In this document: positions 1,713 through 61,914 of the stretch, piece after piece
Layout of the letters: each line of letters opens with the position of its first letter
Position numbering within the stretch: the stretch's first letter is position 1
Assembly: GCA_001004105.1 (NCBI GenBank)
Contig: LCQK01000001.1
Span: 166,928 to 230,927, forward strand
Reading direction: 5' to 3'
Origin: Candidatus Jorgensenbacteria bacterium GW2011_GWB1_50_10
GTDB lineage: Bacteria > Patescibacteriota > Minisyncoccia > UBA6257 > GWB1-50-10
DNA: 64,000 nt
Program-made: the position numbers and the translations under genes
Notes under the pieces: generated by a model
What the model saw: the letters and a program-made list of their open reading frames with translations, nothing else
Database searches by the model: none
What the model was told of the DNA's origin: nothing

Positions 1713-1790
1713 GAAGTCCCGCCGCCGATCTCAGGCAACTCCTTTCTATAAGAAGTTCCGGACTTTTATTTCTTTTCTTTCTCTCTTTTT

Positions 1791-1818
1791 TCATTTTCTC
1801 CCATATGGGAGAAAATGA
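1791..1818. repeat. Perfect 28-nt palindrome TCATTTTCTCCCATATGGGAGAAAATGA (CCCATATGGG-core family)
   Basis: Reverse complement identical; intergenic downstream of ComEA-like gene; shares core TTTCTCCCATATGGGAGAAA with copies at 10339, 11038, 61877. Confidence 0.8.
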
Positions 1819-2144
1819 GATATGGCAAAAACTTCAGAGAGATGCTCAGCGGCATATTAGGGAATGGAGCAATCTTTTCTCCGATATAGGAGTAACGGAA
1901 ATTCTGAAGAGTTCGAGCTATAAACGGGTTGATTTCCAAGAAAATCAGGTTCAAATTCGGTTCGCGCCCTCGCCGCGCGGTTCAAAATAGGGGAATTGGG
2001 AAAAAATTTGCCAACCTCCGAAAATTATGACGTTTTAGGAGGTTATCCCCACTTGCCACGTTTGACCAGTCAGCCATAATTTATCATGCCGAGCGTCGAA
2101 GAAAATCCGCCGGCTGGCGGATTAAAAAAAATCAAAAATTTTTC

Positions 2145-4613
2145 ATGAAAAAAAGGAAAAACGTTGCCGCAAAAGTGGTCACCCTAACTGATGAAACCGT
2201 GAACTCCAGTTTTTCGGAGAATGCCTTGAAAATGATGCGGAAACGCTACCTTTTTACTGACGAGAGCGGCAAACAGGAGGTGCCGGCCGACATGTTCAGG
2301 CGCGTGGCAAAGAATTTGGCGGAAGTTGAACGCAATTACGAGCACGACGAAAGGCGGGTAAAGCAAGTTGAAGGCGATTTTTACGAAATCATGGCGCGGA
2401 AGGAATACACGCCGGCAGGACGGACGCTCACCAACGCCGGGACGCCGCAATCTTTGATTGCAAACTGCATCGTTCTCCCCATCCGCGATTCAATGGAAAG
2501 TATTTTCGGAACTTTGAAAGACGCTTCGCTCTTACAGCAAGCCGGTTCCGGTTTGGGATTCGCTATCGACGAGATGCGGCCCTCCATGTGGCCGACCAAG
2601 CGCTCGCGCGGCCACTCTTCCGGGCCGGTTTCGTTCCTGAAGGTTTACAACGAAGCGTTTGGCACGATTAAGCAGCAGGGCCGGCACGGCGCGAATATGG
2701 CGATGATGTCGGTCAATCACCCGGACGTTTTGGATTTCATCCGGTCCAAAGAAGTGGAAGGGGAAATCCGCAATTTCAATATCTCGGTCAAGGTGACCGA
2801 TGAATTTATGAAACTCGTTGAAGAAGCGCCGGAGACAAAATGGTACTGCGAGTGGAGCGGTGAAAAATTGAAACCGCGAAAAGTTTTGCGCCACCCGAAC
2901 GGCTCTGTTTACGGCTACGAAGACGTGGATATCACGGTCGGCGAAATGTTTGACGAAATCGTGGAGTACGCTTGGCTAAACGGCGAACCGGGAATCGTTT
3001 TCATTGACGAGGTGAATCGGACAAACCCTTTGCCCTCGCTCGGTCCCATTGCTTGTTCCAATCCCTGTGGCGAGCAATTTCTCCACCCTTACGACAACTG
3101 CAATTTGGGTTCCATCAATCTCGCGGTTTTCGTGAAAGACGGAAAGGCGGATTACGCCCGTTTGCGTTTTGCGACAAAGACCGCCGTGCGCCTAATGGAC
3201 AACGTCATTGACCGGTTTGATTTTCCGGTGAAAGAAGTGACCGAACTTGCCAAAAAGAACCGGCGCATCGGGCTCGGGATTATGGGTTTCGCCGACATGC
3301 TCTATCAGTTGGGAATTAAATACAATTCCGAAAAAGGATACGAGACGGCCGAGAAGGTGATGAGTGTGATTCAGGAAGCTTCGCATGAGGCCTCGGCGGA
3401 ACTCGCCAAAGAAAAAGGCGCCTTCCCCAATATCAAGAAGAGTATTTTTGCCAAAGGCCCGAAAATGCGCAACGCCGCTTTGACGACGGTCGCGCCCACC
3501 GGTTCCATTTCCATGATGTACGACACTTCTTCCGGGGTAGAACCCAATTTCGCCCTGGCCTATGTGAAACAGGACAAAGATGGCGTCAAGTATCACTATT
3601 TGAACAGGTATTTTGAGGAAGAATTGAAGCGGCGCAACTTTAGCGAGGAAAAAATCAATGAAATCAAGGAAGAAGTCATGAAAACCGGCGGCATCCAGAA
3701 ATTGGACTCTCTGCCTCAGGACTTGCGGGACACATACGTCATTTCCATGGATATTCCGGGAGGGGACCACGTGAAAATCCAGGCCGCTTTTCAGAAACAC
3801 GTTGATAATTCCATCTCCAAGACGATTAATTTCCCCGGGAGCGCGACCAGGGAAGACGTGAAGCGCGGTTATATCCAGGCCTGGAAGGCCGGTTGCAAGA
3901 GCTGCACGGTTTACCGCGACGGTAGCCGCAACGTCCAGGTTTTGAACGTAGGGAGCGGCGAGAACATGATTTCTATCACAGATGTTCCTTCGGGAAAGAA
4001 ACGCGAAGCGCAAGCGCAACCGGTTTTGAATCTGGAAATTGACAAAGGCAAGCTTTCACCCCGGACGCGGCCGGCAGTAATGAGCGGCAAGACCTATAAG
4101 ATGAAAATAGGCTACGGTAATCTGTACGTGACGATTAACGACGATGAGACCGGTGCGCCTTTTGAGGTTTTTGCCGCAATCGGCAAGACCGGCGGCTTTT
4201 TCCAAGAGCAGAGCGAGAGCATCTGCCGGCTGATATCGCTATCGCTTCGGGCCGGCATTAAAGTGGAGGAAATTATTGACAACCTTAAAGGTATTCGCGG
4301 ACCGATGCCGGTTTTCACCGACAAAGGCACAGTCCTATCGCTCCCGGATGCGATCGCGAGAATTCTGGAAGAACACGTGACCGGCAAGAAAGAAGATGCC
4401 GTGGAAGAGTTGCCACAGGTGGCGGAACTTCAAGCACCTCAACCATTGGTGGTTACGGCCAAAGTTGATTTGAATTCATATGAGAACGGCAACGGAACGA
4501 AATCAATCGCCGATTACGGCTTGATGCCGGGCTGCCCCGAATGCGGCGAGATGCTTCAGATGAGCGAAGGGTGCCTTTCTTGCCGCAACTGCGGCTTCAC
4601 GCGCTGTTTGTAA
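2145..4613 (+). CDS. nrdJ: Class II (adenosylcobalamin-dependent) ribonucleotide reductase NrdJ with C-terminal zinc ribbon
   Basis: 822 aa; active-site NPCGEQ, TVAPTGSIS, C-terminal CPECGE...CRNCG; monomeric class II RNR length. Confidence 0.85.
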   Translation: MKKRKNVAAKVVTLTDETVNSSFSENALKMMRKRYLFTDESGKQEVPADMFRRVAKNLAEVERNYEHDERRVKQVEGDFYEIMARKEYTPAGRTLTNAGTPQSLIANCIVLPIRDSMESIFGTLKDASLLQQAGSGLGFAIDEMRPSMWPTKRSRGHSSGPVSFLKVYNEAFGTIKQQGRHGANMAMMSVNHPDVLDFIRSKEVEGEIRNFNISVKVTDEFMKLVEEAPETKWYCEWSGEKLKPRKVLRHPNGSVYGYEDVDITVGEMFDEIVEYAWLNGEPGIVFIDEVNRTNPLPSLGPIACSNPCGEQFLHPYDNCNLGSINLAVFVKDGKADYARLRFATKTAVRLMDNVIDRFDFPVKEVTELAKKNRRIGLGIMGFADMLYQLGIKYNSEKGYETAEKVMSVIQEASHEASAELAKEKGAFPNIKKSIFAKGPKMRNAALTTVAPTGSISMMYDTSSGVEPNFALAYVKQDKDGVKYHYLNRYFEEELKRRNFSEEKINEIKEEVMKTGGIQKLDSLPQDLRDTYVISMDIPGGDHVKIQAAFQKHVDNSISKTINFPGSATREDVKRGYIQAWKAGCKSCTVYRDGSRNVQVLNVGSGENMISITDVPSGKKREAQAQPVLNLEIDKGKLSPRTRPAVMSGKTYKMKIGYGNLYVTINDDETGAPFEVFAAIGKTGGFFQEQSESICRLISLSLRAGIKVEEIIDNLKGIRGPMPVFTDKGTVLSLPDAIARILEEHVTGKKEDAVEELPQVAELQAPQPLVVTAKVDLNSYENGNGTKSIADYGLMPGCPECGEMLQMSEGCLSCRNCGFTRCL

Positions 4614-5999: not shown

Positions 6000-6073
6000 C
6001 CCCCTATAGCTCAGTCCGGTAGAGCAGCTCCCTTTTAAGGAGATGGTCCCAGGTTCAAATCCTGGTGGGGGGA
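6000..6073 (+). tRNA. tRNA-Lys (anticodon TTT)
   Basis: CCCCCTA TA GCTC AGTCCGGTA GAGC A GCTCC CTTTTAA GGAGA TGGTC CCAGG TTCAAAT CCTGG TGGGGGG A. Confidence 0.85.
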
Positions 6074-6103
6074 CAAGAGATTGGGGTATTTATTTTTGCC
6101 TCA

Positions 6104-6157
6104 CTGCCATCTGATAAGGAGATGGTCGTAGGTTCAAATCCTACACGGGGGACAAGA
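6104..6157 (+). pseudogene. Partial duplicate of the tRNA-Lys 3' half (anticodon-arm 3' side, T-arm, acceptor 3' strand) with compensatory T-stem changes
   Basis: TAAGGAGATGGTC-GTAGG-TTCAAATCC-TACAC-GGGGGACAAGA vs tRNA TAAGGAGATGGTC-CCAGG-TTCAAATCC-TGGTG-GGGGGACAAGA; no matching 5' acceptor strand. Confidence 0.5.
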
Positions 6158-10338: not shown

Positions 10339-10384
10339 CTCTTCTATTCACTTTCTCCCATATGGGAGAAAGTGAATAGAAGAG
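10339..10384. repeat. Perfect 46-nt palindrome CTCTTCTATTCACTTTCTCCCATATGGGAGAAAGTGAATAGAAGAG
   Basis: Reverse complement identical; 150 bp upstream of the GC-rich orphan gene 10538..10921. Confidence 0.85.
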
Positions 10385-10537: not shown

Positions 10538-10921
10538 ATGCGGGTACAGGTTGCTCCATCCCAGGCCCAGATTTTTCAGAAGATGATGGCGGGGGCGAAA
10601 AAACCCATCACCGACGGGGCGCTCGTCCGAGTTGACCTACTGCACCTCGTGACACGGAGGGTCAGCCGCCGGACGAGAGAGGCGTATTTCAACGCCAGGG
10701 GGCGAGTTCGGCCGAGGTGCTTCTTCGTCCAGGGGAACGGTGCGCCCATTTCGGAGAGAATCCGGTTTGAGGGCATTGTTCTTCGGGGGAGAGGCGAGTT
10801 CGCGGCTCACGACGTCTTCAACGTGATGGTGGACGCGCGCGACCCGGCGGTCACGGTCATCCGGCCGTGGAAGGACGATGAGCATCCGGAGGAAAACACC
10901 GACGTGAAGCCCGCGCACTGA
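10538..10921 (+). CDS. Hypothetical GC-rich orphan protein (127 aa); shares C-terminal motif VTV(I/Y)RP(W/M)K with the 56507 protein
   Basis: GGAGAGGAG RBS then ATG; about 60% GC vs AT-rich flanks; own promoter and terminator; flanked by CCCATATGGG palindromes. Confidence 0.5.
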   Translation: MRVQVAPSQAQIFQKMMAGAKKPITDGALVRVDLLHLVTRRVSRRTREAYFNARGRVRPRCFFVQGNGAPISERIRFEGIVLRGRGEFAAHDVFNVMVDARDPAVTVIRPWKDDEHPEENTDVKPAH

Positions 10922-11037: not shown

Positions 11038-11069
11038 ATTCACTTTATCCCATATGGGATAAAGTGAAT
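11038..11069. repeat. Perfect 32-nt palindrome ATTCACTTTATCCCATATGGGATAAAGTGAAT
   Basis: Reverse complement identical; downstream flank of the orphan gene. Confidence 0.85.
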
Positions 11070-11084
11070 GCTTAGTGAGTATGT

Positions 11085-11848: not shown

Positions 11849-12306
11849 AGCCGGCAAACCGGAGAACGGGCCCCGCAAACCAGAAGGAAAACGGGCCCTT
11901 TTTCTATAATGAAGAGATGGACAAAGAAAAATTACCACCAGAACTCTATCGCGTGGCATATGAGAAAGGCACCGAGGTGCCTTTCACCGGCAAATATGTT
12001 CATGAAAAAGCCGAGGGTATGTACAGGTGCGCCGTCTGCGGCAGCGAACTTTTTTCGTCGGAGGCGAAATTTGATTCCGGCACCGGCTGGCCGAGTTTCA
12101 CCGAGCCGGCCAATTTGAACAATATTGAACTAAAGGAAGATTTAAGCGGAGGCATGCGGCGCACCGAGGTTTTGTGCAGAAAGTGCGGGGCGCACTTGGG
12201 CCATGTTTTTGACGATGGGCCGCGGGACGGGCGCCTGCCTGCCGGCAGGCAGGGCAAGCGTTATTGCATCAACTCCGTTTGTTTGGACCTGGAAAAGAAA
12301 GAGTAG
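11845..12306 (+). CDS. msrB: Peptide-methionine (R)-S-oxide reductase MsrB carrying an in-frame LPAGRQ insertion
   Basis: CxxC...[23 protein letters not shown] MsrB motifs; ATG at 11917 is an alternative start; 6-aa insertion between DG and GKRYCINS encoded by the palindrome. Confidence 0.85.
12234..12253. repeat. 20-nt perfect palindrome CCTGCCTGCCGGCAGGCAGG, in-frame inside msrB (encodes LPAGRQ)
   Basis: Direct read; reverse complement identical; no stop codon in any frame. Confidence 0.9.
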
Positions 12307-25442: not shown

Positions 25443-25526
25443 TGCCCGAGGTGGGAGTCGAACCCACATGTCCTTGCGAACACAGGATTTTGAGTCCTGC
25501 GCGTCTGCCAGTTCCGCCACCCGGGC
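25443..25526 (-). tRNA. tRNA-Leu (anticodon CAA), type II with long variable arm
   Basis: GCCCGGG TG GCGG AACTGGCAGAC GC GCAGGA CTCAAAA TCCTGT var GTTCGCAAGGACATG TGGG TTCGACT CCCA CTCGGGC A. Confidence 0.85.
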
Positions 25527-25545
25527 CTGCCTGCCGGCAGGCAGG
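25526..25545. repeat. 20-nt palindrome CCTGCCTGCCGGCAGGCAGG abutting the 5' end of tRNA-Leu
   Basis: Direct read; first base is shared with the tRNA. Confidence 0.9.
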
Positions 25546-25593
25546 CGAAATTTTATTGATAATGCCACAAATATTGGGTAGAGTAAATATTAT

Positions 25594-26705: not shown

Positions 26706-27716
26706 ATGACAGGCAAAGGATTGGAATCTCTTATTCCCAAAAAAGATCGGGACGGGGAGATGTTCTCAAAAGACGCGGTCATTTCACCCAGAGCGAATGA
26801 AACGCCGCTCGACTCTCAACCTCGCTCTGTCCCGTTGGGGCGGGACAACCATACCCGCTCGGTTTCCCTGCCTGACCGGCAGGCAGGCGAGACACTTTCT
26901 CAAGCATCTCCCCGTCCCTCAATTAGAGATGAAGCGATATTCCAGATAGAAGTTGAGAAAATAAAACCCAACCCCTACCAGCCGCGGAAAGATTTTAACG
27001 ATGAAGAAATTGAAGATTTGGCCCGTTCCGTCCGCGAGTTCGGCATCATCCAGCCCTTAGTGGTCACCAAAGTTGAAAAAGAAACGGAGACCGGCACGAG
27101 CGTGGAATACGAGCTTATTACTGGAGAGCGCCGGCTTCTTGCGGCCAAAAAAATTGGTTTGCGGAGCGTGCCCGCAATCGTAAAGAGAGTGGATGTCGGG
27201 AAAGCCAAACTGGAAATGGCGCTTGTGGAAAACATCCAGCGGAGCGATTTGAATCCATTGGAAATAGCTAGGGGCTACGCGCGGCTGCAGGACGAGTTTA
27301 ATCTAACCCAGCAGGAGGTCGCCTCCCGGGTCGGCAAGAGTCGGGCTTCCGTTGCAAACACAGTGCGGCTTCTCGCTCTTCCAGGCGAAATGCAGGAAGC
27401 GTTGGGGGCAGGGAAAATAAACGCTTCGCAGGCCATCGCTCTTCTTGCCACCTCCGACATCAATGAACAGCGGCGCTTATTCAGCGAGTTTGTTCACGGT
27501 AAGACTATTAAAGGAGATGCGTCCCACGCCGCGAAAGCTGAAACGCCTGACCCGGAAAAACAATATTGGGAAAAACGCCTAGAAGAACGTTTCGGCGCGC
27601 CGGTCAAGATCATGCGCCGGGATGGCAGGGGAAAAATGGAAATTCGTTTCCATTCCAAAGAAGAATGGCAGGCGATCTTAGATAAGCTTTTGGGCGGCGA
27701 GAATCCCGAAACTTAG
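26706..27716 (+). CDS. parB: ParB/Spo0J partition protein with about 60-aa low-complexity N-terminal insertion
   Basis: GKGLESLIP, ParB box ELITGERRLLAAK, HTH; insertion contains the palindromic element (SLPDRQAGE). Confidence 0.85.
   Translation: MTGKGLESLIPKKDRDGEMFSKDAVISPRANETPLDSQPRSVPLGRDNHTRSVSLPDRQAGETLSQASPRPSIRDEAIFQIEVEKIKPNPYQPRKDFNDEEIEDLARSVREFGIIQPLVVTKVEKETETGTSVEYELITGERRLLAAKKIGLRSVPAIVKRVDVGKAKLEMALVENIQRSDLNPLEIARGYARLQDEFNLTQQEVASRVGKSRASVANTVRLLALPGEMQEALGAGKINASQAIALLATSDINEQRRLFSEFVHGKTIKGDASHAAKAETPDPEKQYWEKRLEERFGAPVKIMRRDGRGKMEIRFHSKEEWQAILDKLLGGENPET
26867..26887. repeat. Variant palindrome CCTGCCTGACCGGCAGGCAGG (one extra A) in-frame in parB
   Basis: Direct read. 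Confidence 0.85.
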
Positions 27717-29476
27717 CGGTTGAATTTGTAGTTTACTTCCTTGGTGCCGGCGATTTTTTTGATTTTAACGAGAATCTGCTCCAGTTTGGATTTGGTAAGC
27801 GGGGCGGTTCTCACGGTTACCGCCGAGATGGCGCCGCGTTTGTCGGTCTCGCTCGAGAGGTAGCCGATGTTTATTTTTGATTCGTCAAACTGGGCGGTGA
27901 CATCTTTCAGGAAACCGGGACGGTCTTGATTGACGATTTTGAATTCAACCCCTGCCGGGGCGGATTTCTCCCGCAGCGTTTTAATTTTATCTTTAATGGC
28001 GTTTTTGATTTGGCTTCTCGCGAGCGAAGTTTTAATGAAGCGGAGCCAGTCCTCCGACGGTTTTTTGGTCTTTTGAGTCATAATTTCCACGATGTCGCCG
28101 GACTGGAGCTCGTAGTTTAAGGGTACGATTTTGCCGTTCACTTTCGCGCCCACGCAGTTGTTGCCGACATCGGAGTGAATCCGGTAGGCGAAATCGACGG
28201 GGGTGGCGCCGGCGGGCAGGTCAATCACGTCGTTCTGGGGCGTAATGACGAAAATTCTGTCCTTGAAGAAATCGACGGCGATGGATTCAATTAGTTCCTT
28301 ATCGGAGAAGCTTTTCTGCCAATTGCGGAGCTGTTCCACCCATAAAAGCTCCTTACGCGAGAGAACGCCCTTCCATTGCTCGCTGTGTCTTTTGGAGTTT
28401 TTGATTTGTTCGTAAGCCCAGTGGGCGGCGATGCCGAGCTCGTCTACTTCGTGCATCTCGGCGGTGCGGACCTGAAACTCGGTGATAATATTCTCCAGAG
28501 CGAAAACCGTGGTGTGCAAACTTTGGTAGCCGTTAGGTTTCGGTCTTGCGATGTAATCCTTTATCCGGCCTGGCAGAGGCGGATAAAGTTTGTGAATGAC
28601 GCCCAGAGCCGCATAGCAATCCTCAATAGTTTTCACGACTATGCGGAGTGCCACGAGGTCATAAATTTTATCCAAATCCATATCGTAGCGCTGGAGTTTT
28701 TTATACAAACTGGAGTATCTTTTGGCCCGGGAATCAATAGCGATGACTTTGATGCCGTTACGCTCGAAATTTTTCCTGATGATCGGTTTTATTTTCCTAG
28801 CGTAAGATTCCCGCTCTTCGTAGCGGTCTTTGACGTTGTCCAAAAGCCATAGATACTCCTCGGGATGAAAGTAAGGGAAGGCGAGGTCTTCAAGTTCGCC
28901 CGAGAGACGCTGCATACCGAGCCGATAGGCGAGGGGGGCGTAGATTTCCGATGTTTCCCAGGCGATTCTTTTCTGCCGGTCTTCGGGCAGGAACTTGAGC
29001 GTCCTCATATTGTGCCACCGGTCGGCGAGCTTAATAATGACGACCCGGAGGTCGCGGCTAAAAGAGATGATGAACTTGCGGAGCGTCTCCACGTTCGGGT
29101 CGTGCTCCGGGTACTGGATTTTTTTGAGTTTGGTGAGTCCATCAACGAGGAAAGCCACTTCCTTGCCAAATTGTTTATCAATGTTTTTTAAGGTGAAGTT
29201 GGTGTCCTCGACGACGTCATGGAGAAGAGCGGCGGCAACCGAAGCCTCATCCAAACCCCACTTATGGACGGTTTCGGCAACCGAGAGAGAGTGAGTAATG
29301 TAGGGGTCGCCGCTTTCCCTTTTGACATCCTTGTGAGCTTCTTCGGCAAAAGCATAAGCCCTTTTGATAAGGCCGTTTTCGGGGTATTTTTGAAACCAGG
29401 AGGTGTTCATGGGACTTTTTATTTTATCCCCAAGCCGGTTTATTGACAAATAGAGCGGTTTTGAGGGACTTGACAT
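27713..29476 (-). CDS. relA: Bifunctional (p)ppGpp synthetase/hydrolase, RelA/SpoT family
   Basis: HD domain HDVVEDT, synthetase domain, TGS and ACT regions; 587 aa. Confidence 0.9.
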   Translation of the reverse strand: MSSPSKPLYLSINRLGDKIKSPMNTSWFQKYPENGLIKRAYAFAEEAHKDVKRESGDPYITHSLSVAETVHKWGLDEASVAAALLHDVVEDTNFTLKNIDKQFGKEVAFLVDGLTKLKKIQYPEHDPNVETLRKFIISFSRDLRVVIIKLADRWHNMRTLKFLPEDRQKRIAWETSEIYAPLAYRLGMQRLSGELEDLAFPYFHPEEYLWLLDNVKDRYEERESYARKIKPIIRKNFERNGIKVIAIDSRAKRYSSLYKKLQRYDMDLDKIYDLVALRIVVKTIEDCYAALGVIHKLYPPLPGRIKDYIARPKPNGYQSLHTTVFALENIITEFQVRTAEMHEVDELGIAAHWAYEQIKNSKRHSEQWKGVLSRKELLWVEQLRNWQKSFSDKELIESIAVDFFKDRIFVITPQNDVIDLPAGATPVDFAYRIHSDVGNNCVGAKVNGKIVPLNYELQSGDIVEIMTQKTKKPSEDWLRFIKTSLARSQIKNAIKDKIKTLREKSAPAGVEFKIVNQDRPGFLKDVTAQFDESKINIGYLSSETDKRGAISAVTVRTAPLTKSKLEQILVKIKKIAGTKEVNYKFNR

Positions 29477-29499
29477 CGGTTGGCGGCGGGACTAATTTG

Positions 29500-29891
29500 A
29501 TAACAGCAATCAAGGATCGAGTGTGCGTGTGCGTGTCTCCCCCGGCCATCTAATTGCGTGTCGGGCGTGGAATGGCGGGTCGCCAAGCGCTTGGTGACCC
29601 AAAGCTCTGCGGGGATGTCGAATGTCCGGATTCGCCGGCACGTCATAGTAGGGCTACTGCGGGAGCATCTCCGCACACTCGATTTCTATTAGTCGTGAGG
29701 TCACCCTCCAGGCCAGGTCTTACCTCGAGTAGGGTTCTTGGTGAGGGTACAACCCAGCCCGGACAACTGGAACCTCTTCAAGGAAGGGTAAGCGCTCCCG
29801 TAAGCCCTTCGACCTCACGAGACTTCAATGATGCCTTAGGCATCTGTAGCGATAACCCCCCGGTCGGCAACGATCGGGGGTGAGTATTTTT
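29500..29891 (+). ncRNA. Candidate structured ncRNA of about 400 nt (GC-rich, nested long-range helices, intrinsic terminator); identity unresolved, RNase P RNA is one possibility
   Basis: Long-range pairs GATCGAGTGTGCG(29515)/CGCACACTCGAT(29672) and AGTCGTGAGGTC(29691)/GACCTCACGAGACT(29810); many local hairpins; only garbage GC-rich ORFs; terminator at the 3' end. Confidence 0.35.
29856..29891 (+). terminator. Rho-independent terminator
   Basis: CCCCCGGTCG gcaa CGATCGGGGG then TGAGTATTTTT. Confidence 0.65.
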
Positions 29892-29905
29892 AGAAAGCCA
29901 TTATC

Positions 29906-29933
29906 TTGACAATAGTTTTTTTTTCACTAAAAT
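29906..29933 (+). promoter_or_regulatory. Sigma70-like promoter of groES (TTGACA-16-TAAAAT); no CIRCE element seen
   Basis: -35 29906..29911, -10 29928..29933. Confidence 0.4.
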
Positions 29934-29946
29934 CTTAACTACCAAC

Positions 29947-30237
29947 ATGAACCTCAAACCTCTTTCCAACCACTTATTTATAGAAGCAATTGAGGAAGAA
30001 AAAATGTCCAAGTCCGGCATTGTTTTACCGGATACGGCCGAGAAAGAAAAACCCGTGAAAGGGAAAATTGTAGCTGCGGGTCCCGGGAAATTGAACGAAA
30101 AAGGCGAGCGGATGCCGATGGCAGTCAAAGTAGGCGACGTCGTGCTTTTTAAAAAGTATGGGCCAGATGAGTTTGAACTGGACGGGAAAAAATATCTGGT
30201 CGGCGACGAGGACGGTATACTTGCAATCATCGAATGA
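29947..30237 (+). CDS. groES: Co-chaperonin GroES
   Basis: 96 aa; typical GroES sequence. Confidence 0.9.
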   Translation: MNLKPLSNHLFIEAIEEEKMSKSGIVLPDTAEKEKPVKGKIVAAGPGKLNEKGERMPMAVKVGDVVLFKKYGPDEFELDGKKYLVGDEDGILAIIE

Positions 30238-30284: not shown

Positions 30285-31907
30285 ATGGCTAAAAAAATTC
30301 TGTTTAACGAAGATGCGAGGGTGGCTTTGAAAAAAGGCATTGATAAGCTTGCCGAAGCGGTGCGGATGACGCTTGGTCCCCGCGGCCGGGCGGCGGTGAT
30401 TGAAAAGGGCTACGGTGCGCCACAGGTCACTTTTGACGGCGTCACGGTCGCCAAAGAAATCGAGCTTGAGGAAAAATACGAAAACCTCGGCGCGGATTTT
30501 ATCAAGCAGGCGGCCGAGAAAACGAACGACAACGTCGGCGACGGCACAACGACGGCGGTGGTTTTAGCCCACGCCATGATTGACGAAGGCGAAAAAGTCA
30601 TCCGCGAAAAAGGCTTTAATGTCATTCAACTCGGCGAGGAATTGAGAAAAGCAAGCCAAACCATTGTTAAGGAACTTGAAAAACAAAAAGAGTTAATTAA
30701 CGACAACAAAAAGGTGGAGGAAGTAGCTTCTCTTTCGGCCAAGGATAATGAAATCGGCAAGCTTATTGCCGAAGTGATGGAGAAAATCGGCAAGGATGGC
30801 GTGGTGACGGTGGAGGATTCCAATACCGTCGGCAATTCCTACGAAATGGTGGAAGGGATGCAGTTTGACCGCGGCTATATCTCGCCCTACATGATTACGA
30901 ACGCGGAGCGGATGGAGGCGGTACTGGATGACCCGTATATCTTGGTGACCGACGAGAAAATTTCCGCGATTGGTGACTTACTGCCGCTTTTGGAAAAAAT
31001 CGTGGCTAGCGGCAAAAAAGAACTTTTGATTATTGCCGATGATGTTGATGGAGAAGCCTTGGCGACTCTAATCGTGAACAAGCTTCGCGGTACGTTCAAT
31101 GTCGTGCCGGTCAAAGCTCCAGGTTTCGGCGACCGGAAGAAAGAAATGCTGCAGGATATCGCGGTCGTGACAGGCGCCACGTTTATTTCCAAGGAAATCG
31201 GCAAAAAGATGGAGAACGCTGATTTGTCAGTTTTGGGCCGCGCTAAAAGGGTTATTTCCGACAAGGATAACACTACGATTGTGGGCGGCACCGGGGATAA
31301 AAAGACGATTGATGAGAGAATTCACCAGTTGAAAGCTGAAGTCCAGAGAACGGAATCCGATTTCGACAAGGAAAAATTACAGGAACGGTTGGGTAAGCTC
31401 GCCGGCGGAGTGGCCGTGATTAAAGTCGGCGCGCCCACCGAAACCGCCCAAAAGGAATTGAAGCAAAGAGTGGAGGACGCGGTTCACGCGACTCGGGCGG
31501 CGATGGAGGAAGGAATTGTCCCCGGTGGCGGCATGGCTCTGTTTCATGCCTCGCCCGCGGAAGGGGGAGACGATTCCACGGTTCACGGCGCGGCCCGGCT
31601 CATTATTGATAAAGCCCGCGAGGCGCCGCTTCGGGCCATTATTGAAAACAGCGGTCTTCAAGCCGAGGAGATTATCGGGAAATTAAGGAGCGAAAAGAAC
31701 ATCTGGACGGGCTTCAACGCGATTGACAACAAAATTACCAATTTGAAGGAAGCAGGCATTATTGACCCTTTGAAGGTAACCAAAACCGCCTTTTTGAATG
31801 CGGTTTCGGTCGCGGCTAATTACCTCACGGTGGGTGTGGCGATTACCGATATTCCCGAGAAGAAAGAAGCACCTCCTGCCGGCGGCGGCATGGGAATGGG
31901 TTATTAA
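30285..31907 (+). CDS. groEL: Chaperonin GroEL
   Basis: 540 aa; [13 protein letters not shown]-terminal GGM repeat. Confidence 0.95.
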
Positions 31908-31920
31908 AACACTAAAAACT

Positions 31921-31939
31921 CTGCCTACCGGCAGGCAGG
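31921..31939. repeat. Variant palindrome CTGCCTACCGGCAGGCAGG just after the groEL stop
   Basis: Direct read; one G to A change relative to the consensus. Confidence 0.85.
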
Positions 31940-31972
31940 CCTTTATAAAATGAGGGTTTTTGACTATTTTAC

Positions 31973-32040: not shown

Positions 32041-32439
32041 ATGACTACAGTAATTACAGCAGCCGTATTGGCCGCGAGACTGATTATTGCTCTCGGGTTT
32101 TTGCCTACGGCCGTTGCAGAAGACAAAAATCCGAGCGATCCAGCGCCCAAGGCCGTCCAAATCGTTGTCACGGCCTATTCCTCGAGCCCCGACGAGACCG
32201 ACAGCACGCCCTTTATTACCGCTTCCGGTAAGACCACCGGCGACGGGATCCTCGCGAACAACTGCCTGCCTTTCGGCACGGAGGTGAAAATTCCCGAGCT
32301 TTTCGGCGAGAAGATATTCGTCGTGGAAGACCGGAAGCATTCCCGCTACAGCTGCAACTGGCTTGATGTTTGGTATCCGACTAAAGCCGAAGCAAAGAAA
32401 TTCGGCATCAAGAAGGAGATAGAAGCGCTGGTTTTCTAA
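32041..32439 (+). CDS. 3D-domain (MltA/YocH-like) secreted protein
   Basis: Signal anchor; VTAYSS..DETDSTPFITASG...CLPFGT..DR pattern of 3D domain. Confidence 0.6.
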   Translation: MTTVITAAVLAARLIIALGFLPTAVAEDKNPSDPAPKAVQIVVTAYSSSPDETDSTPFITASGKTTGDGILANNCLPFGTEVKIPELFGEKIFVVEDRKHSRYSCNWLDVWYPTKAEAKKFGIKKEIEALVF

Positions 32440-34342: not shown

Positions 34343-34373
34343 TATTTTGAAAGATTACGGAGGGGTCGCATAG

Positions 34374-34413
34374 CCCTGCCTGCCGCCTGCCTGCCGGTAG
34401 GCAGGGCAGGCGG
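34374..34413. repeat. Extended/duplicated version of the palindromic element (CCCTGCCTGCCGCCTGCCTGCCGGTAGGCAGGGCAGGCGG) preceded by a 15-nt copy of the tRNA-Ser 5' end
   Basis: GGAGGGGTCGCATAG at 34359 repeats the tRNA 5' GGAGGGGT; the palindrome family core is tandemly reiterated. Confidence 0.8.
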
Positions 34414-46363: not shown

Positions 46364-47149
46364 ATGAAGTATTCACATCTGAGCGAAACAGTATCGATTA
46401 AAAAAGTTTCCGAAGACGGAAAAAAAGGGGTTTTTCACGTTGAGGGCCTCTATACAGGTTACGGTCAGACGGTCGGCAACGCCTTGCGCCGTGCCCTTCT
46501 TTCGTCGCTTCCCGGCGCGGCCATAACCCAGATTAAAATCAAAGGTGTGGACCATGAATTTTCAACGCTGCCCGGCATGGTGGAAGACGCCGTTGAACTC
46601 ACGCTGAATTTAAAAAAAGTCCGGTTTCATTTCTTCGCCGACGAGCCGCAGACTTTGAAACTCCACGTCAAAGGCGAGCGCGAAGTGAAGGCGGGTGACA
46701 TTGAGTCGACGACGCTCGTCAGAGTGGTAAATCCCGAGCTTCGCATCGCCACTTTAACCAAGAAAAACGCCGATTTGGACATGGAGCTTACGGTTGAAAA
46801 AGGTTTGGGCTACGTGCCTTCGGAGTCGCGCCGCCTAGAACGGCTCTCCGTGGGAACCATCGTGCTTGATGCCATTTTTTCGCCGGTCACGCGGGTTGAA
46901 TTTTCGGTGGAGGATATGCGGGTCGGCGAACGCACCGATTATAACCGCTTGGAACTTGAAATCGAAACTGACGGGTCCTTAAGTCCCTCGGAAGCGCTCC
47001 ATAAAGCGGCCAATGTTCTGAAGGATCATTTTGAAAAAGTTTCAGACATTCCGGTTGTTAAAGTTGAAACGGAGGCCATGCCTACCGGCAGGCAGGCGCC
47101 GAAAGAAGGTAGCAAGAAAAAACCGAGAGCGAAGAAGGCGAAATTATGA
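46364..47149 (+). CDS. rpoA: DNA-directed RNA polymerase alpha subunit, short form (N-terminal domain plus Lys-rich tail, apparently no alpha-CTD), tail carries a palindromic-element insertion
   Basis: 261 aa; alpha NTD motifs; C-terminal ...EAMPTGRQAPKEGSKKKPRAKKAKL. Confidence 0.85.
   Translation: MKYSHLSETVSIKKVSEDGKKGVFHVEGLYTGYGQTVGNALRRALLSSLPGAAITQIKIKGVDHEFSTLPGMVEDAVELTLNLKKVRFHFFADEPQTLKLHVKGEREVKAGDIESTTLVRVVNPELRIATLTKKNADLDMELTVEKGLGYVPSESRRLERLSVGTIVLDAIFSPVTRVEFSVEDMRVGERTDYNRLELEIETDGSLSPSEALHKAANVLKDHFEKVSDIPVVKVETEAMPTGRQAPKEGSKKKPRAKKAKL
47090..47107. repeat. Variant palindrome GCCTACCGGCAGGCAGGC in-frame in the rpoA tail (encodes PTGRQA)
   Basis: Direct read; same reading frame as the msrB and efp copies. 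Confidence 0.85.
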
Positions 47150-57066: not shown

Positions 57067-57651
57067 TTATCCTTTCTCCACCCGTTCTACGTAATCGCCG
57101 CTTGCCGTGTTTATGCGGATGATGTCGCCTTCATTGATGAAGAGGGGAACATTTACTTTGGCGCCGGTTTCCAAAGTCACGGTTTTAGTGCCGCCCTGGG
57201 CGGTGTTGCCTTTGACGCCCGGCGGCGCTTCCGTCACTTTCAAGTCCATCTTGACGGGCGGTTCGATATTGATGATTTTTTCGTTGAATTTGAAAGCCCG
57301 TGCCTCGCTGCCCTGTTTCAAATAATTTGCCGCTTCGCCCACGATGTCGGCCTTGAGGGCAAATCTTGATTTGGGATTGCCAGAGACGTGGAACCAGTAC
57401 TCCTGCCTGCCGGCAGGCAGGCGCCGCGCATAAATAAACTCAACCGGAATTATCTCAATATCTGCCTCTTTGAACGAGTCGTTCTGGTGGGCGGCGTATT
57501 CCCGGACCTTGCCGGAAATTAAATTCTTGATTTTGAGCTGGGCCACGGGCTTGCGCTGCTGCATCCGGACGAAGGCGTAGTCCAGTACCTCATACGGCTC
57601 GCCGTCTTTAATGAACAACATCCCGACTTTTAGTTCGTTGTAGGAAAGCAT
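57067..57651 (-). CDS. efp: Elongation factor P carrying an in-frame LPAGRQ insertion
   Basis: 194 aa EF-P; FIYARR-LPAGRQ-EYWFHV where canonical EF-P has a short loop. Confidence 0.9.
   Translation of the reverse strand: MLSYNELKVGMLFIKDGEPYEVLDYAFVRMQQRKPVAQLKIKNLISGKVREYAAHQNDSFKEADIEIIPVEFIYARRLPAGRQEYWFHVSGNPKSRFALKADIVGEAANYLKQGSEARAFKFNEKIINIEPPVKMDLKVTEAPPGVKGNTAQGGTKTVTLETGAKVNVPLFINEGDIIRINTASGDYVERVEKG
57402..57421. repeat. 20-nt palindrome CCTGCCTGCCGGCAGGCAGG in-frame inside efp
   Basis: Direct read, perfect copy. Confidence 0.9.
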
Positions 57652-61876: not shown

Positions 61877-61914
61877 CTATTTCACTTTCTCCCATATGGG
61901 AGAAAGTGAAATAG
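61877..61914. repeat. 38-nt perfect palindrome CTATTTCACTTTCTCCCATATGGGAGAAAGTGAAATAG
   Basis: Reverse complement identical; same family as 10339 and 11038. Confidence 0.85.

What the first reader, a model, noticed from the sequence alone, without database searches (positions are those of the whole stretch)
29478..29895. Roughly 400-nt GC-rich structured ncRNA candidate between relA and the groESL promoter
The spacer has much higher GC than the genome and only nonsense ORFs. It shows nested long-range helices (29515-29527 pairs with 29672-29683; 29691-29702 pairs with 29810-29824), many local hairpins and a strong intrinsic terminator. The size and two-domain architecture would fit RNase P RNA. 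I see only partial matches to its conserved regions (GTCCGG, GGTAAGCGC), and they are not in canonical order, so the identity is open. It could also be a lineage-specific large ncRNA.
Basis: partly seen in the sequence, partly recalled or inferred. Interest (0 to 1): 0.6.

Follow-up and report, generated by a model that had tools for sequence, protein, structure and literature searches.

The report
Orphan structured RNA gene, not RNase P
The GC-rich spacer between relA and groES in this groundwater Candidatus Jorgensenbacteria (CPR) genome most likely encodes a real, evolutionarily constrained ~385-nt structured RNA that matches no known family and is not RNase P RNA. It sits in a locus where close relatives carry different or no RNA cassettes.

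Summary
Region 29478-29895 is 56.9% GC against 49.4% for the window (99th percentile). It has no conserved ORF, folds better than shuffles (z = -3.95 on the + strand) and ends in an intrinsic terminator just before the groES promoter.

They keep pairing through compensatory changes in relatives (L030, L031, L089).

The RNase P reading fails:
- No Rfam hit even at E<=10.
- No CR-I or CR-V motif.
- The topology is wrong.
- The nearest relatives (L028, L029, L060) carry non-alignable RNAs at the same site, and others (L065, L067, L112) carry none.

What is there:
- A stand-alone RNA gene on the + strand.
- A conserved domain 1: a rod capped by a junction, with a core about 95% identical between lineages whose four-fold sites are only 51% identical.
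- An optional domain 2, absent from the minimal 215-nt L089 version.
- A short 3' hairpin and a terminator.

The gene lies between two copies of the TTGACA(A) -35 element of the ancestral relA/groES divergent promoter. The site behaves as an insertion and replacement hot spot. Function is unknown. I favour a trans-acting protein-binding scaffold.

The parts
29421..29449 (-). relA promoter (TTGTCA-17-TAAAAT). Its -35 is the palindromic TTGTCAA/TTGACAA element at 29443-29449, which also reads as a -35 on the + strand.
   Evidence: Promoter scan gives 10/12 matches. The block ATTTTATCCCCA...TTATTGACAAA is conserved in win, L028-L031 and L089. In RNA-less relatives such as L067, the same single element serves both relA and groES.
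29470..29498 (+). Putative promoter of the RNA in this genome: TTGACA, 17 nt, TAATTT. The -10 is weak (3/6), so this is inferred.
   Evidence: Read by eye; it falls below the 4/6 rule of the scan. In relatives the RNA promoter is the 29443-type TTGACA followed by 16-18 nt and TATTCT, TATCCT, TACGCT or TAGGCT (sequences). Conservation between win and L030 starts at about 29503.
29505..29891 (+). Predicted RNA transcript, about 385 nt. Both ends are inferred, not mapped.
   Evidence: Bounded by the promoter above and the terminator below. Fold z = -3.95 on the + strand against -2.56 on the reverse. Many G-U pairs in conserved helices would be A-C mismatches on the other strand.
29516..29683 (+). 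Domain 1, the conserved module. H1 is 29516-29527/29672-29683. H2 is 29537-29541/29661-29665. An internal loop follows. H3 is 29556-29564/29635-29643. H4 is 29566-29571/29606-29611. Hairpin Hp-a is 29577-29600.
   Evidence: All pairs are canonical in the window. Compensatory changes occur in H1 (G-C,A-U / A-U,G-C / G-C,G-C; C-G to U-A), H2 (C-G to U-A) and H3 (U-A to C-G) across win, L030, L031 and L089.
29550..29649 (+). Domain-1 core (H3, H4, Hp-a and a short hairpin). This is the most conserved stretch. Invariant segments: GUCGGGCG, GGCGGG, CCCAAA.
   Evidence: Covariance model R1 scores win 115 bits, L030 112, L031 85 and L089 34 (E about 1e-5), and nothing else in roughly 885 kb of loci. 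91.8% of cells are paired against 34-51% when partners are slid. Four pairs change on both sides.
29693..29820 (+). Domain 2, a lineage-specific add-on. H5 is 29693-29702/29811-29820. H6 is 29703-29708/29743-29748. A variable hairpin is at 29712-29742. Hairpin H7 is 29783-29789/29804-29810.
   Evidence: MFE folds. H5 shows compensatory C-G to U-A and U-A to C-G changes, and H7 an A-U to G-C change. Domain 2 is absent from L089. In L060 its interior is replaced while the GUGAG/CUCAC closing stem is kept.
29830..29844 (+). Short 3' hairpin (GAUGCC UUA GGCAUC).
   Evidence: A hairpin is present at the same place with a different sequence in every variant: L030 AAGGCC/GGCCUU, plus L028, L029, L031, L060 and L089.
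29846..29855 (+). Conserved linker GUAGCGAUAA (family pattern GCAGYNAUA) between the 3' hairpin and the terminator.
   Evidence: Shared by all slot variants, including the otherwise unalignable types B and C.
29857..29891 (+). Intrinsic terminator: stem 29857-29880, then a T-run at 29887-29891.
   Evidence: Terminator scan. A terminator hairpin plus T-run sits at the same position in L028, L029, L030, L031, L060 and L089.
29906..29933 (+). Proximal groES promoter (TTGACA-16-TAAAAT), the second copy of the TTGACA(A) element. It shows that groES does not depend on read-through from the RNA.
   Evidence: 11/12 match. Conserved in all relatives with or without the RNA.

Best explanation
**What it is.** A stand-alone gene for a structured, non-coding RNA of about 385 nt on the + strand, belonging to no described family.

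**Transcription unit.**
- It is transcribed rightwards from a sigma-70-type promoter that descends from, or duplicates, the ancestral groES promoter. That promoter sits back-to-back with the relA promoter.
- It is stopped by an intrinsic terminator about 15 bp before a second, near-consensus groES promoter.
- The RNA and groESL are therefore separate transcription units.

**Architecture.**
- The conserved, selected part is domain 1. It is a long irregular rod (H1-H2-internal loop-H3) capped by a small junction with invariant purine- and A-rich strands (GUCGGGCG, GGCGGG, CCCAAA).
- Domain 2 and other inserts are dispensable lineage-specific expansions.

**Likely function (inferred).** The RNA most likely acts in trans as a folded scaffold, with the domain-1 cap and internal loop as a binding surface for a protein or another macromolecule.

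**The locus.** The RNA lies between two copies of the TTGACA(A) -35 element. The site is an insertion and recombination hot spot where cassettes have been swapped, shortened or lost.

**Shown versus inferred.**
- Shown: structure, covariation, purifying selection, absence of any known-family signal, patchy and incongruent distribution.
- Inferred: transcription start, independence from groES, and trans action.
For: **Structure and strand.**
- Fold z = -3.95 on the + strand against -2.56 on the reverse.
- The type-B relative gives z = -4.9 against -2.9. Minimal L089 gives z = -3.8.

**Covariation.**
- H1, H2, H3, H5, H7, the 3' hairpin and the terminator keep pairing through two-sided changes.
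- In the domain-1 core, 91.8% of cells pair against 34-51% in slid controls. The covariation score is reached by 3 of 500 shuffles.

**Purifying selection.**
- Four-fold-site identity between win and L030 is 51% in both relA and groES.
- The RNA is 76% identical over 446 nt, and the ~100-nt core about 95%.
- A 25-nt core stretch is identical between L031 and L089.

**Not coding.** Indels are not multiples of three and no ORF is shared.

**Own terminator plus downstream groES promoter** in all variants.

**No family match.** No Rfam match at any threshold in win, L028-L031 or L089.

**No partner gene nearby.** Neighbours are parA, parB, relA, groESL, LemA and an M48 peptidase. The other 20 large ORFs scanned across the window are ordinary cellular genes, with no RT, TnpB or Cas among them.
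Against: - No expression data. The window's own -10 (TAATTT) is weak and the 5' end is a guess.
- Only four independent domain-1 sequences exist, so covariation statistics are thin. Alignment A4 was fitted to the model.
- The nearest relatives (L028, L029, L060) have different RNAs, and L065, L067 and L112 have none. The RNA is therefore dispensable or replaceable, which also fits a decaying insertion.
- Nothing indicates what it would bind.
- The direct repeat TTGACAA at both ends, and a MITE-like insert at the same site in L001, hint at a mobile origin.
Confidence: 0.5

Rival explanations
1. It is a cis-acting leader or attenuator of groESL. Transcripts from the distal (ancestral) promoter run through a large structured leader and are conditionally terminated at 29857-29891, adding a regulated layer such as a heat or ligand sensor to groESL expression.
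For: - Same orientation as groES and directly upstream.
- The distal promoter is orthologous to the groES promoter of RNA-less relatives.
- The window clade has lost the CIRCE/HrcA operator that most relatives carry, so another control could have replaced it.
Against: - A near-consensus promoter (11/12) lies between the terminator and groES in every variant.
- L089 keeps the RNA, CIRCE and the proximal promoter together.
- L065 and L067 lack both CIRCE and the RNA.
- I did not see a conserved antiterminator pairing by eye. No systematic search for one was run.
- The interior is interchangeable between close relatives.
Confidence: 0.15
2. It is a decaying or selfish insertion. Small palindromic or mobile elements have accumulated at a hot spot in the relA/groES divergent promoter. 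The structure reflects GC-rich palindromes rather than an RNA function.
For: - TTGACA(A) direct repeats flank the insert in all variants.
- L001 has a 72-bp palindromic insert with an 8-bp direct repeat GGGTTGAC at the same site.
- Presence is patchy and cassette types do not follow the RelA/GroES tree.
- Scaffold gaps and contig ends pile up at this spacer.
Against: - The domain-1 core is under strong purifying selection relative to saturated silent sites.
- Compensatory changes include G-U intermediates that make sense only on the + strand RNA.
- A promoter and terminator are maintained.
- There is no second copy in the 64-kb window or in about 885 kb of loci from relatives, metagenomes and viral contigs.
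- No terminal inverted repeats were seen by eye.
Confidence: 0.15
3. It is a 6S-like RNA. Domain 1 would be a rod with a central internal loop that mimics an open promoter and sequesters RNA polymerase.
For: - The minimal L089 RNA is a single ~145-nt irregular rod with an A/U-rich internal loop flanked by G-C-rich stems, followed by a hairpin and terminator.
- The same H1-H2-loop-H3 order is kept in all four type-A sequences.
- The size range and stand-alone gene organisation fit.
Against: - No hit to the Rfam 6S families at E<=10.
- In win, L030 and L031 the apex is a junction rather than a simple terminal loop, and a second domain follows.
- It is absent or replaced in very close relatives, which is unusual for 6S.
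- RNAP binding and product-RNA synthesis cannot be tested here.
Confidence: 0.1
4. It is a highly diverged RNase P RNA. Some CPR RNase P RNAs do fall below Rfam thresholds (PMC8172020).
For: - The size is about 385 nt and there are two domains.
- GAAUGUCCGG resembles the CR-I core GAAAGUCCGG.
- UGUCCGG (29623-29629) is complementary to CCGGACA (29759-29765), a P4-like long-range pairing. This was read.
- CPR RNase P RNAs are known to be divergent.
Against: - No RNase P hit at E<=10 on the region or E<=5 on the whole window. The diverged CPR examples were still found with RF00010 at lowered cut-offs.
- CR-I and CR-V are absent at up to 2 mismatches.
- The GUCCGG and CCGGAC strings are not conserved in L031. 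L089 lacks domain 2 altogether.
- Types A and B share no 7-mer.
- Relatives at 74-78% RelA identity have no RNA at this site.
- The topology is wrong.
Confidence: 0.02

Closest known systems
Orphan stand-alone structured bacterial ncRNAs found by comparative genomics (the class of candidates catalogued e.g. in PMC5737381)
   Same: - Intergenic location, elevated GC, and its own promoter and intrinsic terminator.
- Helices supported by covariation.
- No associated protein gene and unknown function.
- Narrow phylogenetic range.
   Different: - It matches none of the 4227 Rfam 15 families.
- Non-homologous cassettes alternate at one locus among close relatives.
- Only one of the two domains is conserved.
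6S RNA (RNA polymerase-sequestering RNA)
   Same: - A rod-like domain with a large internal loop between G-C-rich stems.
- A 150-200-nt conserved module.
- An independent gene whose primary sequence evolves fast.
   Different: - No hit to the Rfam 6S models.
- The apex is a junction and an extra domain 2 follows.
- It is missing or replaced in close relatives.
Bacterial RNase P RNA (type A), including the diverged CPR forms described in PMC8172020
   Same: Overall length, GC-rich multi-helix fold, and CPR host.
   Different: - No CR-I to CR-V motifs.
- No P1/P2 stem enclosing all branches.
- No conserved P4 pseudoknot.
- No covariance-model score.
- Not conserved among close relatives.
Intergenic palindromic or MITE-like insertions (REP/BIME-type hot spots)
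   Same: - Sits between duplicated short direct repeats at a promoter.
- Variable content between strains, which breaks assemblies.
- A genuine MITE-like insert occupies the same site in L001.
   Different: - Single copy.
- No terminal inverted repeats.
- Strong purifying selection and RNA-strand-specific compensatory changes in domain 1.

Membership tests
Bacterial RNase P RNA (RF00010/RF00011) | Scores against the family covariance models, even below the gathering cut-off as in diverged CPR examples | tested here: not met
   No RNase P hit at gathering score, at E<=10 on 29350-30000, or at E<=5 on the whole window. The same holds for L028-L031 and L089.
Bacterial RNase P RNA (RF00010/RF00011) | Universally conserved regions CR-I (GAGGAAAGUCC) and CR-V (ACARAAnnnGGCUUA) | tested here: not met
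   No + strand match in 29478-29895 with up to 2 mismatches. Window-wide counts equal chance.
Bacterial RNase P RNA (RF00010/RF00011) | P4 long-range pseudoknot conserved across homologues | tested here: not met
   The UGUCCGG/CCGGACA complementarity exists in win and L030. It is lost in L031 and impossible in L089, which lacks domain 2.
Bacterial RNase P RNA (RF00010/RF00011) | Essential single-copy gene, so close relatives carry an alignable orthologue | tested here: not met
   L028 (RelA 94%), L029 and L060 carry non-alignable RNAs at this site. L065, L067 and L112 have 57-84 bp spacers. Whether they have the gene elsewhere could not be checked.
tmRNA | tRNA-like domain plus tag reading frame | tested here: not met
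   ARAGORN finds no tmRNA in the window. No Rfam tmRNA hit.
6S RNA | Match to 6S covariance models | tested here: not met
   No 6S hit at E<=10 in the window region or in the minimal L089 RNA.
6S RNA | Extended hairpin with a large central bubble flanked by stable stems, about 150-200 nt | tested here: inconclusive
   Domain 1 of L089 folds as one irregular rod with an A/U-rich internal loop. In win, L030 and L031 the apex branches and a second domain follows.
6S RNA | Binds sigma-70 RNA polymerase and templates product RNA | not testable with these tools
   Needs biochemistry or RNA-seq.
SRP RNA | Match to the bacterial SRP covariance models | tested here: not met
   No SRP hit at any threshold. 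By eye, a CCAGGCCAGGUC resemblance to the helix-8 region in win is not kept in L030.
Riboswitch / cis-regulatory leader | Lies in the 5' UTR of the regulated gene, with the expression platform directly controlling it | tested here: not met
   A near-consensus promoter (29906-29933, 11/12) separates the terminator from groES in all variants. No riboswitch family is hit.
MITE / REP-type repeated element | Multiple dispersed copies | tested here: not met
   No second copy in the window or in other loci. Only 64 kb of this genome could be searched.
MITE / REP-type repeated element | Terminal inverted repeats | not tested
   None seen when the ends of the insert were compared by eye. No inverted-repeat search was run on the element ends.
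MITE / REP-type repeated element | Target-site duplication | tested here: inconclusive
   TTGACA(A) is repeated at both ends. Both copies are also functional -35 elements, so selection could explain the repeat as well.
Type I toxin-antitoxin locus / small protein gene | Conserved short ORF, typically hydrophobic | tested here: not met
   No ORF is shared between win, L030 and L031. Frames are broken by indels and no hydrophobic peptides are present.

The most novel reading that the evidence does not exclude
The relA-groES spacer of a Jorgensenbacteria subclade is a dedicated 'RNA slot'. Alternative, mutually unalignable structured RNAs (types A, B, C, and a minimal form) are each kept under selection, and are exchanged between lineages by recombination in the conserved flanking genes. 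This would resemble an allelic cassette system for an RNA. Domain 1 would be a previously undescribed RNA class, for example a 6S-like or other protein-sequestering regulator in CPR bacteria.
Probability: 0.2. Interest if true: 0.7.

Novelty: new variant of a known kind. Interest (0 to 1): 0.45.

Why it matters
CPR/Patescibacteria have tiny, gene-dense genomes and almost no characterised regulatory RNAs. Keeping a 200-550-nt non-coding gene under purifying selection implies a real function.

The case is also a useful caution. A GC-rich ~400-nt two-domain fold in a CPR genome is not automatically the 'missing' RNase P RNA.

If cassette-like replacement at one promoter-flanked site is confirmed, it would be an unusual mode of ncRNA evolution. 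It would also partly explain why this spacer breaks metagenome assemblies.

The practical value is modest for now. The family is known from about seven lineages and has no assigned function.

Tried and rejected
**Known families and coding potential**
- RNase P, tmRNA, SRP, 6S, riboswitches, ribozymes and introns: rejected by Rfam at gathering and permissive thresholds on the window and on relatives, by ARAGORN and by motif scans.
- Protein-coding gene or pseudogene: the 109-aa ORF has no Pfam hit. Indels break all frames and no ORF is shared.
- tRNA gene with a group I intron: suggested by the 5' motif UAGCUCA in L028, L029 and L031. Neither ARAGORN (window only) nor Rfam reports a tRNA in these spacers. 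By eye, the would-be anticodon loops have 6 nt, and the order of the P7-like strands is reversed relative to group I introns.

**Mobile or repeated element**
- Phage or mobile origin: no match in the phage collection. Viral-contig pattern hits are chance matches.
- Repeated element: no other copy in the window.
- Partner protein: neighbours and 20 other large ORFs across the window are ordinary cellular genes, with no RT, TnpB, IscB or Cas among them.

**Other functions considered by eye**
- CsrB-like sponge: I counted 8 GGA motifs by hand in the transcript, about what its base composition predicts. No tool run.

**Searches that gave little**
- A strict metagenome pattern found nothing.
- A relaxed pattern gave 44 loci, of which only L089 is a true homologue by the covariance model.
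- A GTDB scan with RelA gave 24 loci. Ten are syntenic, all with short spacers and no homologue.
- Literature searches found no description of such an RNA.
- MAFFT alignments of L031 domain 2 and of the domain-1 5' strand (A1 in part, A2) were unreliable. I replaced them with explicit helix tables and a model-based alignment (A4).

Full report
**Setting**

The window comes from a CPR/Patescibacteria bacterium of the Candidatus Jorgensenbacteria group. The RelA and GroES proteins are identical to those named for GW2011_GWA1_48_13 and GWC1_48_8. The finding lies between three genes:
- relA/spoT on the minus strand, 27713 to 29410 or 29476 (HD_4, RelA_SpoT, TGS, ACT).
- groES, 29947-30237.
- groEL, 30285-31907.

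**Checking the observation**

Every descriptive claim holds.
- GC is 56.9% against 49.4% for the window, the 99th percentile of 418-nt windows.
- The only long ORF (109 aa, 29554-29883) has no Pfam hit. No gene was called there in public assemblies. Its frame is destroyed by 1-, 2- and 4-nt indels in the homologous L030 sequence.
- The + strand folds to -175.3 kcal/mol, z = -3.95, with 0 of 100 shuffles as good. The reverse strand gives z = -2.56.
- The two long-range helices are H1 (29516-29527 with 29672-29683) and H5 (29693-29702 with 29811-29820). All their pairs are canonical.
- A terminator (stem 29857-29880, T-run 29887-29891) is followed by a TTGACA-16-TAAAAT promoter for groES at 29906-29933.

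**Is it a known RNA?**

It is not.
- Rfam 15 finds only tRNAs in the window at gathering scores. On the region alone at E<=10 it finds only meaningless snoRNA-type hits. On the whole window at E<=5 it finds nothing relevant.
- ARAGORN finds no tmRNA.
- CR-I and CR-V of RNase P are absent even with two mismatches.

This matters because Lui et al. (PMC8172020) showed that many CPR RNase P RNAs fall below Rfam thresholds. Those were still recovered with RF00010 at lowered cut-offs and keep the conserved features. This sequence does neither.

**Relatives: RNA-less lineages**

A RelA-based scan of GTDB genomes gave 24 loci. Ten keep the divergent relA/groES arrangement, with spacers of only about 90-220 bp and no homologue of the element.

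**Relatives: the closer lineages**

Closer relatives were fetched through the protein collection.

| Locus | Identity to window | Spacer content |
|---|---|---|
| L061 | GroES 98% | type A, 4 differences in 343 nt |
| L028 | RelA 94% | long spacer, type B |
| L060 | GroES 92% | type C (313 nt available) |
| L029 | RelA 88% | long spacer, type B |
| L030 | RelA 88% | long spacer, type A |
| L031 | RelA 81% | long spacer, type A |
| L067 | RelA 78% | 84 bp, no RNA |
| L112 | RelA 74% | 79 bp, no RNA |
| L065 | GroES 86% | 57 bp, no RNA |

- L028-L031 all have long spacers of 520-660 bp, ending in a + strand terminator just before the conserved groES promoter.
- The window, L030 and L031 share an alignable RNA, which I call type A.
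- L028 and L029 share a different RNA, type B. It is equally well folded on the same strand (z = -4.9 against -2.9) and has no Rfam hit.
- L060 carries type C. It keeps the CGCACAC strand, a GUGAG/CUCAC closing stem, the 3' hairpin, the GCAGYNAUA linker and the terminator, but has a different interior.
- Types A and B share no 7-mer.

**A more distant homologue**

The second metagenome pattern scan gave 44 loci. The covariance model picked out one true homologue, L089 (34 bits, E about 1e-5).
- L089 is syntenic (parA-parB-relA / groES-groEL) with RelA 71% identical to the window's.
- It holds a minimal ~215-nt RNA: domain 1, a small hairpin, the linker and a terminator. Domain 2 is absent.

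**Structure and selection**

Domain 1 (29516-29683) consists of H1, H2, an internal loop, H3, H4 and hairpin Hp-a. Across the window, L030, L031 and L089 the helices are kept through two-sided changes:
- H1: G-C,A-U / A-U,G-C / G-C,G-C, and C-G to U-A.
- H2: C-G to U-A.
- H3: U-A to C-G.

On the model-based alignment of the core, 91.8% of cells pair against 34-51% when partners are slid. Four pairs change on both sides, and 3 of 500 shuffles reach the covariation score. Two caveats apply: there are only four sequences, and the alignment was fitted to the model.

Domain 2 (29693-29820) shows compensatory changes in H5 and H7. The 3' hairpin changes three pairs between the window and L030 while staying paired. 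Numerous G-U pairs in these helices fix the + strand as the RNA strand.

Selection is clear.
- Four-fold degenerate sites of relA and groES are 51% identical between the window and L030, and 42-49% between the window and L031.
- The RNA is 76% identical over 446 nt, and the 100-nt core about 95%.
- A 25-nt core stretch is identical in L031 and L089.

**Evolution of the locus**

The nearest relatives by silent sites carry types B and C: L028 at 70% four-fold identity in relA, L060 at 73% in groES. The much more distant L030, L031 and L089 carry type A. Gradual divergence cannot explain this. Cassettes have been replaced or exchanged, and lost in L065, L067 and L112.

The promoter arrangement points the same way.
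- In RNA-less relatives one palindromic TTGTCAA/TTGACAA element serves as the -35 of both relA and groES.
- In RNA-bearing genomes this element is present twice, flanking the RNA. The window has a third copy at 29470.
- In L001 the same site holds a 72-bp palindromic insert flanked by the 8-bp direct repeat GGGTTGAC.
- Three GTDB MAGs have 100-N scaffold gaps exactly here.
- Contigs L060, L061 and L062 begin inside or beside the RNA.

Together these suggest strain heterogeneity at the site.

**Interpretation**

The best-supported reading is a stand-alone, structured, non-coding RNA gene of a new family. Domain 1 is the functional module and domain 2 is an add-on. The gene lies in an insertion and recombination hot spot created around the duplicated groES promoter.

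The downstream promoter and the constitutive-looking terminator argue that it is not a groESL leader. L089 makes the same point, because it keeps the RNA, the CIRCE operator and the proximal promoter together. Purifying selection and strand-specific compensation argue against a mere relic.

The function is not established. A trans-acting protein-binding scaffold is my preferred guess. A 6S-like role is a specific, testable version of it, suggested by the rod-plus-internal-loop shape of the minimal L089 RNA but unsupported by the Rfam 6S models. RNase P RNA is rejected.

**Limits**
- There is no expression data.
- Only about seven lineages are known, and only four independent domain-1 sequences.
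- Only 64 kb of this genome was visible, so canonical rnpB or ssrS elsewhere, and extra copies of the element, could not be checked.
- The transcription start is inferred from weak -10 elements.

Noticed in passing
window 12231-12262, 25523-25547, 31917-31941, 34372-34407, 47074-47098, 57399-57423 (and weaker copies at 32262 and 37797): A family of GC-rich palindromes (GCCTGCCTGCCGGCAGGCAGGC), 9 copies in 64 kb. Several sit right after genes or tRNAs, for example just after the groEL stop and next to tRNA-Leu. It looks like a REP-like or terminator hairpin family.
   Followed up: no
window 1789-1822, 1870-1903, 10346-10379, 11038-11071, 61880-61913: A 30-bp perfect or near-perfect palindrome (TTCACTTTCTCCCATATGGGAGAAAGTGAA) in five intergenic places. 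One is about 320 bp upstream of the ribonucleotide reductase gene at 2145-4613. Two flank a GC-rich 127-aa ORF at 10538-10921. It is a candidate operator for an unknown regulator.
   Followed up: no
window 6036-6078 and 6115-6157: The 3' half of tRNA-Lys (6000-6074) is repeated 79 bp downstream at 86% identity. This may be an integration scar (att-like duplication).
   Followed up: no
window 29934-29946; relatives L001-L009 and L089 upstream of groES: Most relatives have a CIRCE-like HrcA operator (TTAGCA-N9-TGCTAA) between the groES promoter and the start codon. The window clade (win, L028-L031, L060), L065 and L067 lack it, so heat-shock control of groESL seems to have changed in this lineage.
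   Followed up: partly
window 29424-29432: TTATCCCCA is one mismatch from the DnaA box TTATCCACA. It is invariant in the relA promoter region of win, L028, L030, L031 and L089 (L029 has TCTATCCCCA), and lies next to parA-parB. It could be a DnaA or other regulator site rather than part of the promoter.
   Followed up: no
L007:3889-3988, L014:3873-3972, L024:3901-4000; starts of contigs L060, L061, L062: Three of 24 GTDB loci have 100-N scaffold gaps exactly in the spacer upstream of relA. Three short contigs begin inside or beside the RNA. The locus is hard to assemble, which fits strain-level heterogeneity and means its true distribution is probably under-sampled.
   Followed up: partly
L001:1236-1452 (reverse strand), the relA-groES spacer: A 72-bp palindromic insert (ATAGTAAT ... 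ATTACTAT arms) is flanked by the 8-bp direct repeat GGGTTGAC, which duplicates the groES -35. It is a MITE-like insertion at the same site as the RNA slot.
   Followed up: partly
window 29443-29449: The relA promoter and the distal + strand promoter use one palindromic -35 (TTGTCAA/TTGACAA), so the two divergent promoters overlap back to back and probably exclude each other. In RNA-less relatives this single element drives both relA and groES.
   Followed up: partly
L031:2777-2940 (reverse strand): L031 carries an extra ~150-nt perfect-stem hairpin (GCCUUCAGGCGAGCCGGAGACC ... GGUCUCCGGCUCGCC) inserted 5' of domain 1. It is another example of modular expansion of this RNA.
   Followed up: no
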